Of a DNA stretch of 64,000 nucleotides, positions 51,310-54,300 are shown piece after piece (positions within the stretch are counted from its first letter, which is position 1; the number at the start of each line of letters is the position of its first letter). Source of the DNA: Escherichia coli O157:H7 (GTDB lineage: Bacteria; Pseudomonadota; Gammaproteobacteria; Enterobacterales; Enterobacteriaceae); the NCBI RefSeq assembly GCF_013167455.1, contig NZ_CP038328.1; one strand, given 5' to 3'. The position numbers were made by a program.

Positions 51310-54300
51310 AGTCGTGCACCGACGCCTGATGCGACGCGGGCGCGTCATATCACGCCAAAACCGTAGGCCGCCTCCGCCATGTTAAATGTTAACTGGCATT
51401 GGCAATTTACTCTTCCCGGCCTTTACTCATACTTTTTTGGTCTTCATCCGGATAGTGTTTTTTTAGATATTCCAGGACGTTTTTATTGACCTTGTGTTGC
51501 GTATACACCCACCCTTTCCAGTAATCAGGCTGGTCCAGGTAAACTTCTGGCGGAATGGTGAAATCAGAAAGCGTTAACCATTCGGCTAACAGATCGGGGT
51601 TTCGTTTCTGTATCAACTGCAACAGCATAATCAGCGACATGGCAGAGGCAGGAGCCGTACTATCGCCGCTTAAATACTTCCACACTGTCGACCGGTTCGA
51701 ACGAAAAAGGATCGGTAGCAATGCCCGGTCCAGATTCATTTCATTAAAAATCTTCTCAAATTCATTCATTTAAATTTTCCTGCCTGGCGTAAACCTCTTA
51801 AAAATTGAGATTTATCAAAGAAACGCATTTTAGCACACATCAGGAACCGCTTCACGTTTAGTCCAGAAACAGAATTTATTTCGCTTATCAAAACAAGTCT
51901 TTACTCTTTTTTACATTGAAAGAGCACGAAATGATTTCCTTTTTTATTTATATAAGAAACCATTTTTGTTTCTTATTGATGGTGTTTACGCTTACAACAG
52001 ACAAAAATGCGCTTTACATCACACAAATGGCGGCGTAGATTTCGATTAAATTGCAACGCAGTTTATTTCTTAAAACAATATTATTTGTTTCTTATAGAAA
52101 CATTAGTACGACTTATTTTGAACAAGAGAAAATGAATGAAAACTGTAAACGTAGCTTTACTGGCACTCATAATTTCAGCAACATCCAGCCCTGTTGTTTT
52201 AGCTGGTGATACCATTGAAGCGGCGGCAACAGAGCTTTCAGCCATTAACTCTGGCATGTCGCAATCGGAGATTGAGCAGAAGATTACCCGCTTTTTAGAA
52301 CGCACAGACAACAGCCCCGCTGCGTATACCTATTTGACTGAACATCACTACATCCCTTCTGAAACACCTGATACCACTCAGACTCCCACTGTCCAGACAG
52401 ATCCTGACGCAGGACAAAAAACCGTTGCCGCTACAGGTGATGTACAGACAACTGCCCGTTATCAGAGCATGATCAACGCCCGACAGTCTGCGGTAACTGA
52501 CGCCCAGCAAACGCAAATTACAGAGCAACAGGCGCAGATCGTAGCCACACAAAAAACGCTCGCCGCGACTGGAGATACGCAAAATACCGCGCATTATCAG
52601 GAAATGATTAATGCCAGACTGGCGGCTCAAAATGAGGCTAATCAGCGCACCGCCACTGAACAAGGGCAGAAAATGAATGCGCTGACAACCGATGTGGCAG
52701 TACAACAGCAAAATGAAAGGACTCAATACGATAAACAAATGCAAAGTCTGGCGCAGGAGTCTGCCCAGGCACATGAACAAATTGACAGCCTGTCACAAGA
52801 CGTAACCCAAACGCACCAACAGTTAACCAACACCCAAAAACGGGTTGCAGATAACAGCCAGCAAATTAACACGCTCAATAACCATTTCAGTTCGCTAAAA
52901 AACGAAGTTGATGACAATCGTAAAGAAGCCAATGCGGGAACTGCATCTGCCATCGCTATCGCCTCACAACCACAGGTTAAAACCGGTGACGTGATGATGG
53001 TGTCAGCGGGAGCGGGAACCTTCAACGGTGAATCTGCGGTGTCTGTCGGAACATCATTTAATGCCGGAACGCATACGGTACTTAAAGCCGGTATTTCTGC
53101 GGATACACAATCTGATTTCGGCGCAGGTGTCGGCGTGGGATATTCGTTCTAATATTTCAATCCTCAATATAAATAAGAGCAAGGAAGCTTGCCGGGTTCA
53201 CCTCTTCATTAATTTGTACATTATTTAAGGTTAACAATGATGAATAGCTCCATTAAATCGTTTTCCCTGCTGGCGGTTATATTACTGGCTGGCTGTAGTT
53301 CACCCACTTCCCGCATCGCAGATTGCCAGGCGCAGGGCGTCAGTCATGACACCTGTTACCTCGCAGAACAGCAGCGTCAGGCGGCTATTTTAAGTGCATC
53401 CGAGGCACAGGCATTTAAAAATGCAGAAGCCGCACAACACGCCCAGGCGGCAAAGAAAGCCATTTATAAAGGATTTGGCATGACCTTTAGAATGAGCAGT
53501 AAAAACTTTGCTTATCTCAATGATTCATTATGTGCAATTGATGAAGACAATAAAGATGCCACTGTTTATCAGTCAGGTCTATATAACGTCATTGTTTATC
53601 ATCACACAGGAAAAGTCGCCTTAATGAAAGAAGGCCAGTTTGTGGGTTATTTAAAATGAAGGAGCAAAGGAAAATACCCCTGACGCATATTATGATTATC
53701 GGTGCGTTTATTTTTGCCTTCTTGCAAGTAGTATTATTAGCCTCCCTGGTTCACGCTGTGAATGTTAACAACGAAATCCAGGAAGGCTTATTTCAGTCGG
53801 GGCGCATTATGGTAGAAAGTTTGCAGCATATTCTTTCGGTGCAAACGGGGATTCACTGATTTTCACCCCGCCCGATGATGACAGCAGCCGGAGAGATTTT
53901 CGATAATCGGGCAGTCGGCGCTGTCATCACCGGGGCAGGCATTCGCCAGCGCCAGTAGCTGGTTGCGCATAGATTGCAGTTCTTCGATATGCCGTTCAAT
54001 CTCCGCCACCTTCTCCAGCGTGCGACGTTTGACGTCGGCACTGTGACGCTGCGGGTCGTTAAACAGATTCACCAGCTCGCCGCTCTCTTCCAGGTTAAAG
54101 CCCACCTGGCGCGCCTGGCGCAGTAAGGTCAATTCGTTGAGATGCTGCTGCGTGTAGGTTCGATAACCATTTTCGCTGCGCATCGGCGGCGTCACCAGCC
54201 CCTTCTCTTCATAGAAGCGAATGGCTTTGCTGGTCAGGCCGGTAATTTTTGCTACATCGCTAATGTTCATCGTTCGCGCAACGCCTCCTGTGCTTTGTTA

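What the first reader, a model, noticed from the sequence alone, without database searches (positions are those of the whole stretch)
51770..52135. Repeated palindromic half-sites (GTTTCTTAT) in the divergent promoter of the adhesin-like module
The 366-bp region between the divergent 120-aa gene and the adhesin-like gene contains a perfect inverted repeat ATAAGAAAC-N7-GTTTCTTAT (51952-51976) and a second palindrome GTTTCTTATAGAAAC (52087-52101), about 35 bp upstream of the start codon. Further AGAAAC motifs occur near 51815 and 51863. This looks like a set of operator sites, possibly for the divergent small protein.
Basis: seen in the sequence. Interest (0 to 1): 0.5.

Follow-up and report, generated by a model that had tools for sequence, protein, structure and literature searches.

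The report
Conserved operator array beside adhesin gene
The repeated GTTTCT/AGAAAC motifs are real and evolutionarily conserved protein-binding sites in the shared control region of an E. coli O157:H7 adhesin-like gene (published as "gmrA") and a small, unstudied DNA-binding protein, which is the most likely binder.

Summary
The window is E. coli O157:H7. The 366-bp region is the divergent control region of O-island 29, between z0640 (120 aa) and z0639.

AGAAAC/GTTTCT occurs 6 times here against 0.35 expected. In nine divergent orthologous regions AGAAAC is the most enriched 6-mer (30 seen, 2 expected).

The real unit is an asymmetric 15-bp palindrome, nTTTCY-N3-AGAAAC.

Site centres keep fixed offsets from a conserved sigma-70 promoter: about -231, -185, -95, -73, +1, +23 and +45. 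The last five lie in helical phase.

In passing: the published "transcriptional activator GmrA" is the YadA-anchor protein, not the helix-turn-helix protein.

The parts
51407..51769 (-). z0640: 120-aa XRE-fold helix-turn-helix protein, the candidate regulator
   Evidence: ORF. RefSeq calls it 'hypothetical protein'. The published z0640 deletion primers map to its flanks. AlphaFold2 model with pLDDT 93. Best structural matches are HigA2, Aca2, Aca1, P2 C, lambda cI and MqsA. No significant Pfam or NCBIfam hit for this sequence.
51805..51818 (.). FNR/CRP-like palindrome TTGAG-ATTT-ATCAA, overlapping the left arm of O1
   Evidence: Matches TTGAT-N4-ATCAA at 9 of 10 positions. That alone is not above chance in the window. 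It is retained in about 7 divergent loci, and is a perfect TTGATAATTATCAA in L019.
51810..51824 (+). O1 ATTTATCAAAGAAAC (10/12), over the predicted z0640 transcription start
   Evidence: The AAAC bases are invariant in nine divergent sequences. Centre is about -231 from the adhesin start site.
51827..51835 (-). Predicted extended -10 (TGCTAAAAT on the minus strand) of the z0640 promoter
   Evidence: Read from alignment A4 and from loci. TGnTAAAAT-like sequence is kept in about 12 of 15 loci, including distant subfamilies. No start-site data exist, so this is inference.
51856..51870 (+). O2 GTTTAGTCCAGAAAC (10/12)
   Evidence: (C/T)AGAAAC is retained at the same offset, with AAAC invariant.
51946..51960 (+). 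O3 ATTTATATAAGAAAC (10/12).
   Evidence: Centre is -95, and -94 to -96 in six other taxa.
51968..51982 (+). O4 GTTTCTTATTGATGG (8/12; the right arm has decayed in Escherichia).
   Evidence: Full palindromes sit at the same offset (-72 to -74) in L014, L010 and Pseudocitrobacter, and at -83 in Symbiopectobacterium.
52013..52041 (+). Predicted sigma-70 promoter of the adhesin operon: TTTACA, 17-nt spacer, TAGATT; start site near 52048
   Evidence: It is the only promoter-like site in 51700-52200. It coincides with the most conserved block of every alignment. There is no experimental start site.
52043..52057 (+). O5 remnant (5/12 in O157), over the -10 and start site. Its right (AGAAAC) arm is intact at 0 to +2 in L012 and L014 (9/12 each).
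   Evidence: Alignment A4 and the offset table.
52065..52079 (+). O6 ATTTCTTAAAACAAT (8/12 in O157), centre +24
   Evidence: The orthologous site is ATTTCTTATAGAAAC in L010 and GATTCTGATAGAAAT in Pseudocitrobacter. It forms part of the 22-bp tandem repeat.
52087..52101 (+). O7 GTTTCTTATAGAAAC (12/12), centre +46, in the predicted 5' untranslated region.
   Evidence: The AGAAAC arm is invariant. The left arm varies without compensating changes (GTTGCT, CTTTCC, CGCCAC).
52136..53152 (+). z0639, published as 'gmrA': 338-aa trimeric-autotransporter-like protein, first gene of the regulated operon
   Evidence: YadA_anchor domain, E = 2.6e-11. Matches AtaA, Hia and YadA anchors in the PDB. RefSeq calls it 'YadA family autotransporter adhesin'. 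The published gmrA deletion primers flank exactly this ORF.
53237..53859 (+). Downstream genes of the module: a 140-aa lipoprotein (z0638) and a 67-aa ORF
   Evidence: Small downstream ORFs in the same order follow the adhesin gene in L003, L012, L014, L019 and L024; their homology to z0638 was not tested.

Best explanation

In O157 the promoter-proximal sites O4, O5 and O6 have decayed, so repression of z0639 is probably weak in this lineage.

Shown here: the sites, their enrichment, their positional conservation, the protein fold and the gene pairing. Inferred: who binds, the sign of regulation and both transcription starts.
For: 1. Enrichment. There are 6 half-sites against 0.35 expected, and four 15-mers at 10/12 or better against 0.08 expected.

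2. Unbiased k-mer count over nine divergent regions (about 62% column identity). AGAAAC ranks first, 30 observed against 2.0 expected, and is present in 9 of 9. GTTTCT gives 10 against 0.7.

3. Spacer test. GTTTCY-Nx-RGAAAC gives 33 hits at N3 against 0.7 expected; every other spacer gives 2 to 9. A profile of 36 sites shows A at -1 (30/36) and TTTC at -9 to -6, with C at -6 in 21/36 against a 19% background.

4. Site centres sit at conserved offsets from a conserved TTTACA-17-TAnnTT promoter in Escherichia, Pseudocitrobacter, Symbiopectobacterium and metagenome loci.

6. The family is tiny, with 23 clusters among 1.84 billion representatives. In at least 11 loci in at least 3 chromosomal contexts it lies divergent from a YadA-anchor gene, mostly across a gap of about 300-410 bp (about 230-290 bp in L019).

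7. Covariation. The subfamily with recognition helix PRNTIFNY (instead of NRSTxxKY) has the same 22-bp-phased, same-orientation array, but with half-site ARGAAC. Members with QRST or HRST helices lack GAAAC and carry other repeated palindromes.
Against: No binding data exist. The strongly conserved element is a same-orientation half-site. The second arm is weak, which is unusual for a symmetric XRE dimer.

The sites resemble OmpR site F2 (TTTTCTTTTTGAAAC scores 10/12). A perfect GTTTCCATCAGAAAC lies about 225 bp upstream of the ompF start site, an E. coli core gene that is present whether or not a strain carries z0640.

The covariation rests on essentially two well-sampled subfamilies and is confounded with phylogenetic distance.

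Confidence: 0.55

Rival explanations
1. [not shown]
For: The geometry is the same as OmpR half-sites 10 bp apart. Canonical sites F1-F3 and C1-C3 were located in real E. coli DNA. F2 scores 10/12 on the palindrome.

With a six-site OmpR weight matrix, O3, O7 and O1 rank 3rd, 5th/7th and 9th of about 128,000 positions in the window.

A perfect GTTTCCATCAGAAAC sits upstream of ompF; the naive chance of that in 600 bp is about 1e-4.

The published z0639 mRNA level falls with added NaCl or KCl and away from pH 7.
Against: The ompC upstream region, including C1-C3, has no palindrome hit at 9/12 or better, and F1 and F3 do not match. The base before GAAAC is A in 30/36 sites here but T or G in the canonical OmpR sites.

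Phasing is 22 bp, not contiguous 20 bp. Three sites lie downstream of the start site.

Scores of 11-13.5 bits fall below most training sites, and another AT-rich stretch (42.3-42.8 kb) collects as many hits.

In the PRNT subfamily half of the sites are AAGAAC, which does not fit GxxAC. The L023 and L024 regions lack GAAAC arrays, although gene synteny suggests they come from Enterobacterales, where OmpR is expected.
Confidence: 0.2
2. [not shown]
For: The region is AT-rich and on a horizontally acquired island. An FNR-like palindrome is conserved beside O1. Sites lie both upstream and downstream of the promoter, as is seen with H-NS antagonists; that comparison is from general knowledge.
Confidence: 0.15
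3. The motifs are chance products of AT-rich DNA, or they act as RNA, for example as a 5' untranslated-region hairpin at 52087-52101.
For: The region is 31% G+C. O7 can form a 6-bp hairpin inside the predicted leader.
Against: Composition-preserving shuffles never reach the observed counts. The motif is conserved while its flanks diverge.

Four of the seven sites lie upstream of the promoter. The left arm of O7 varies without compensating changes. The leader fold has z = -0.65. There is no Rfam match in the region.
Confidence: 0.03

Closest known systems
XRE/Cro-cI-type autoregulators with operator arrays in divergent or upstream promoters (lambda cI/Cro at OR1-3, restriction-modification controller C-proteins, anti-CRISPR-associated Aca1/Aca2, HigA and MqsA antitoxins)
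   Same: Small protein with a five-helix helix-turn-helix fold, and these are its best structural matches. Multiple related 15-bp inverted repeats overlap its own promoter and that of the neighbouring operon. Sites are phased by whole helical turns.
   Different: There is no significant sequence-profile match for the O157 protein. It has an extra helical C-terminal half. The half-sites are strongly asymmetric, all pointing one way. There are seven sites spread over about 290 bp. The cargo is a trimeric-autotransporter operon, not a phage, toxin or restriction-modification module.
SinR of Bacillus subtilis (an XRE-family regulator of biofilm matrix operons; its GTTCTYT motif occurs in tandem and inverted arrangements - recalled from general knowledge)
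   Same: An XRE-fold protein controlling surface-adhesion genes through several short sites in mixed orientations. The motif is superficially alike (GTTTCTT here).
OmpR-binding site arrays at ompF and ompC
   Same: T-rich arm, then GAAAC 10 bp later. Several adjacent sites. Site F2 scores 10/12 on the palindrome. The reported osmolarity response of z0639 resembles that of ompF.
   Different: Phasing is 22 bp rather than 20 bp. The base before GAAAC is A rather than T. Sites lie downstream of the start site. Most canonical OmpR sites do not fit the palindrome.
Local regulators encoded beside adhesin or fimbrial operons (for example PapB/PapI and EcpR/MatA - recalled from general knowledge)
   Same: A dedicated small regulator transcribed next to the adhesin operon it controls, on a horizontally acquired island.
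   Different: These are unrelated protein families. I know of no description of an XRE-type regulator paired with a YadA-anchor adhesin, and none turned up in four full-text searches.

Membership tests
[not shown]
   [not shown]
[not shown]
   The O157 protein's best hit is MqsA_antitoxin at E = 0.12, with none in NCBIfam. Among 22 family members, one each reaches E <= 1e-3 for HTH_3, HTH_26, Xre-like-HTH and MqsA. The PDB profile search gives a best E of 0.74, to a Xre-like antitoxin.
[not shown]
   This needs EMSA, footprinting or a multimer-DNA model. Only a monomer model could be made.
Operator array of a local autoregulator | Motif over-represented relative to local composition | tested here: met
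   (for example AGAAAC 30 observed against 2.0 expected in nine regions).
Operator array of a local autoregulator | Sites conserved in position in orthologous regions while flanks diverge | tested here: met
   Centres at -231, -185, -95, -73, about +1, +23 and +45 recur across genera.
Operator array of a local autoregulator | Sites overlap promoter elements or start sites of the regulator and its target | tested here: inconclusive
   O1 overlaps the start site predicted from a conserved TGnTAAAAT, and O5 overlaps the -10/start site of the conserved TTTACA-17-TAGATT promoter. Both promoters are predictions; no start-site data were found.
Operator array of a local autoregulator | Operator sequence co-varies with the regulator's recognition helix | tested here: inconclusive
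   NRSTxxKY pairs with AGAAAC in 11 loci. PRNTIFNY pairs with ARGAAC in 8 loci with the same 22-bp phasing. QRST and HRST members have other palindromes. There are few independent subfamilies, and the pattern is confounded with divergence.
OmpR box | 20-bp site made of two 10-bp half-sites carrying GxxAC | tested here: inconclusive
   The geometry fits (TTTCY-N4-GAAAC). Weight-matrix scores of 11-13.5 bits rank in the top 10 of the window but fall below most training sites, and they are matched in density by another AT-rich region.
OmpR box | Contiguous 20-bp sites upstream of the -35, and T before GAAAC, as in C1, C2 and F2 | tested here: not met
   Phasing is 22 bp. Three sites lie downstream of the start site. 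The base at -1 is A in 30/36 sites and T in 1/36.
FNR/CRP-family site (for 51805-51818) | TTGAT-N4-ATCAA | tested here: inconclusive
   It matches at 9 of 10 positions. The window has 4 such matches against 2.3 expected. It is conserved in about 7 divergent loci. Its position, about +8 from the predicted z0640 start site, would be repressive.
Structured RNA leader (hairpin or riboswitch) for 52048-52135 | Stable fold, compensatory changes, or an Rfam match | tested here: not met
   Fold z = -0.65. No Rfam hit in the region. The left arm of O7 varies without compensation.
Trimeric autotransporter adhesin (for the 338-aa z0639 / 'GmrA') | C-terminal YadA-like membrane anchor | tested here: met
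   PF03895 covers model positions 1-60 of 60 at residues 279-338, E = 2.6e-11. PDB matches to AtaA, Hia and YadA anchors, E from 1e-7 to 8e-3.
Trimeric autotransporter adhesin (for the 338-aa z0639 / 'GmrA') | N-terminal Sec signal peptide and coiled-coil stalk | not tested
   By eye only: MKTVNVALLALIISATSSPVVLAG. Only weak coiled-coil-type profile hits (SMC, ATG16) were found. No signal-peptide predictor was available.

The most novel reading that the evidence does not exclude
Probability: 0.4. Interest if true: 0.6.

Novelty: new member of a known kind. Interest (0 to 1): 0.45.

Why it matters
O-island 29 occurs in about a quarter of complete E. coli genomes (1416 of 5426), including EHEC O157:H7, EPEC, APEC and meningitis strains. 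Its middle gene is cited in the literature as a flagellar transcription activator.

This analysis gives that gene a concrete, testable control region: seven mapped sites, two predicted promoters and a candidate regulator that nobody has studied. It also shows that the island's only recognisable DNA-binding fold belongs to z0640, not to 'GmrA'.

More generally, it defines a regulator and operator module that travels with YadA-type adhesin operons across Enterobacterales.

Tried and rejected
1. Chance or AT-richness. Rejected by shuffles and by the spacer control.

2. RNA element. Rejected by the fold z-score, Rfam and the lack of compensating changes.

3. In other taxa each arm belongs to its own N3 palindrome. 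L024 does have AAGAAC-N7-GTTCTT, but that palindrome is not kept in its 90-97% identical relatives.

4. A motif in the fliA promoter, the reported GmrA target. There is no palindrome hit at 9/12 or better, only a single AGAAAC.

5. First structure model, from 13 close sequences: pLDDT 60, unusable. It was replaced by a 22-sequence model.

6. Profile scans of metagenome contigs with the whole-family alignments failed because no stretch was conserved enough. Only the PRNT subfamily could be scanned.

7. The scan of species-representative genomes gave only 4 loci.

8. A full-text search for the ompF-upstream 15-mer found nothing.

9. Recalled consensus sequences for Lrp, IHF, RcsB, EvgA, Cra, KdgR, IclR and PhoP do not fit in orientation or spacing. 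This was checked from memory only, not computed.

10. The L019 palindromes (TGATAATTATCA) may be Fur boxes rather than regulator operators, so they were not counted as covariation evidence.

Full report
**What the window is.** The region matches E. coli O157:H7 chromosomes at 100% identity. 1416 of 5426 complete E. coli genomes carry it. RefSeq annotation places it between ybbJ and cueR. The genes are a 120-aa 'hypothetical protein' (51407-51769, minus strand), then the 366-bp gap, then a 338-aa 'YadA family autotransporter adhesin' (52136-53152), a 140-aa lipoprotein and a 67-aa ORF. A type I secretion system and the giant adhesin SiiEA lie beyond cueR.

This is O-island 29 of strain EDL933, comprising z0638, z0639 and z0640 (Yang et al. 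2018, PMC5826968).

**The observation.**
- The 9-mer GTTTCTTAT occurs 4 times in 64 kb, 3 of them here.
- The 6-mer occurs 26 times in the window, 6 of them in these 366 bp. Dinucleotide shuffles of the region give 0.35 +/- 0.57.

**The real unit.** I aligned the region with orthologues from other Escherichia lineages and species, Pseudocitrobacter, Symbiopectobacterium and four metagenome contigs.
- The plus-strand AGAAAC copies are invariant or nearly so, while the flanks fall to about 62% column identity.
- The GTTTCT copies are less well kept.

Scoring GTTTCY-Nx-RGAAAC at 10/12 or better over nine divergent regions gives 33 hits at N3, against 0.7 expected. Every other spacer from 0 to 11 gives 2 to 9.

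A profile of the 36 plus-strand GAAAC sites shows A at -1 (30/36) and TTTC at -9 to -6, with C at -6 in 21/36 against a 19% background. The unit is therefore an asymmetric 15-bp palindrome, nTTTCY-N3-AGAAAC.

An unbiased k-mer count puts AGAAAC first: 30 observed, 2.0 expected, present in all nine regions. GTTTCT gives 10 against 0.7.

**Sites in O157.**

| Site | Coordinates | Sequence | Score |
|---|---|---|---|
| O1 | 51810-51824 | ATTTATCAAAGAAAC | 10/12 |
| O2 | 51856-51870 | GTTTAGTCCAGAAAC | 10/12 |
| O3 | 51946-51960 | ATTTATATAAGAAAC | 10/12 |
| O4 | 51968-51982 | GTTTCTTATTGATGG | 8/12 |
| O5 | 52043-52057 | remnant | 5/12 |
| O6 | 52065-52079 | ATTTCTTAAAACAAT | 8/12 |
| O7 | 52087-52101 | GTTTCTTATAGAAAC | 12/12 |

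In other taxa O4 is a whole palindrome: GTTTCCAATAGAAAC, CATTCTAATGGAAAC and GTTTCCATTGGAAAT.

**Promoters and geometry.** The only sigma-70-like site in 51700-52200 is TTTACA-17-TAGATT at 52013-52041. It coincides with the most conserved block of every alignment, so the start site should be near 52048.

Relative to that point, site centres recur across genera at -231, -185, (-135), -95, -73, about +1, +23 and +45. The steps from O3 to O7 are 22, 74, 22 and 22 bp, which are whole helical turns. Tandem Repeats Finder independently reports a 22-bp period at 52062-52105.

On the minus strand, a TGnTAAAAT extended -10 (51827-51835) is kept in about 12 of 15 loci, including distant subfamilies. This is read. 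It puts the z0640 start site inside O1. Both start sites are predictions.

In at least 11 loci, in at least three chromosomal contexts, the gene lies divergent from a YadA_anchor gene. In most the gap is about 300-410 bp, and about 230-290 bp in L019. One or two small downstream ORFs usually follow the adhesin gene.

**Covariation.** Members with recognition helix NRSTxxKY (11 loci) all carry AGAAAC arrays.

The PRNTIFNY subfamily (P0028 and seven metagenome relatives) has ARGAAC(A) at offsets 116, 138 and 160 (22-bp steps) and at 245, all pointing the same way. That is the same architecture with a half-site changed by one or two bases.

A QRST member has two copies of AGCTAWTAGCT. An HRST member has TGATAA/TTATCA palindromes, which may be Fur boxes.

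This favours a locally encoded binder. It rests on few independent lineages.

**The main rival.** The sites look like OmpR half-site pairs.
- I located the canonical F1-F3 and C1-C3 sites in real E. coli DNA. F2 scores 10/12 on the palindrome.
- Unexpectedly, a perfect GTTTCCATCAGAAAC lies about 225 bp upstream of the ompF start site.
- A six-site OmpR weight matrix ranks O3, O7 and O1 within the top nine positions of the window. Their scores (11-13.5 bits) fall below most training sites, and another AT-rich stretch gathers as many hits.
- The ompC upstream region has no palindrome hit. The base before GAAAC is A rather than T. Phasing is 22 bp rather than 20 bp, and three sites lie downstream of the start site.
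- The published fall of z0639 mRNA with NaCl or KCl fits OmpR but does not prove it.

I leave this rival at about 0.2.

**Other readings.**
- The predicted leader does not fold better than shuffles (z = -0.65).
- There is no Rfam match in the region.
- The left arm of O7 changes without compensation.
- The fliA promoter, the reported GmrA target, has no such site.

**Literature twist.** The published deletion primers show that 'gmrA' (z0639) is exactly the 338-aa ORF. That ORF has a full YadA_anchor domain (E = 2.6e-11) and matches AtaA, Hia and YadA anchors. An earlier genome comparison listed it as 'Saa-like protein' ECs0548.

Its only 'DNA-binding' profile hit is a non-significant coiled-coil match, TMF_DNA_bd at E = 0.16. 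The island's helix-turn-helix protein is z0640. Its deletion had no motility phenotype and it has not been studied further.

**Verdict.** This is a real, conserved operator array in a divergent promoter. It is most likely bound by the neighbouring XRE-fold protein, which would act as an autorepressor and as a repressor of the adhesin operon (confidence about 0.55). It is a new member of a familiar kind of system. It has a useful, testable map and raises an awkward question about 'GmrA'.

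Noticed in passing
window 52136-53152: The gene published as the 'transcriptional activator GmrA' (z0639; Yang et al. 2018) is this 338-aa ORF. It has an apparent signal peptide, a coiled-coil region and a complete YadA membrane anchor, so it looks like a trimeric autotransporter. Its transcription-factor assignment looks doubtful.
   Followed up: yes
[not shown]
   Followed up: partly
window 51805-51818: An FNR/CRP-like palindrome, TTGAGATTTATCAA, overlaps O1. It is kept in about 7 divergent loci and is a perfect TTGATAATTATCAA in L019.
   Followed up: partly
L008:3694-5146; also L006 and L007: The adhesin gene varies in length between E. coli strains: 338 aa in O157, 579 aa in 23S01245 and 846 aa in WP4-S18. 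In WP4-S18 the extra length comes from 3.9 copies of a 369-bp tandem repeat at 97% identity. RefSeq annotates only the C-terminal part in those strains.
   Followed up: partly
window 52043-52080 and 51977-51982: In the Escherichia lineage the promoter-proximal operators (O5, O6 and the right arm of O4) are degenerate. The corresponding positions score 9/12 or better in several metagenome relatives (L010, L012, L014, L016). This suggests relaxed repression in E. coli.
   Followed up: partly
window 51300-51356: A REP-like element between ybbJ and the 3' end of z0640 gives a sub-threshold Rfam naRNA4 match (34 bits against a gathering score of 59.5). It marks one edge of the island.
   Followed up: no
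window 53237-53859: The 140-aa lipoprotein (weak hits to alanine-zipper lipoprotein, TraV and a secretion chaperone) and the 67-aa ORF follow the adhesin gene, and small ORFs occupy the same positions in other genera. They may be export helpers, comparable to SadB for SadA; that comparison is from memory.
   Followed up: no
L023 (metagenome contig, ybbJ-qmcA-cueR context): A distant family member (P0031) sits at the same chromosomal site but without a YadA-anchor gene; only 133-aa and 71-aa ORFs remain. Its upstream region carries two copies of a different palindrome, AGCTAWTAGCT.
   Followed up: partly
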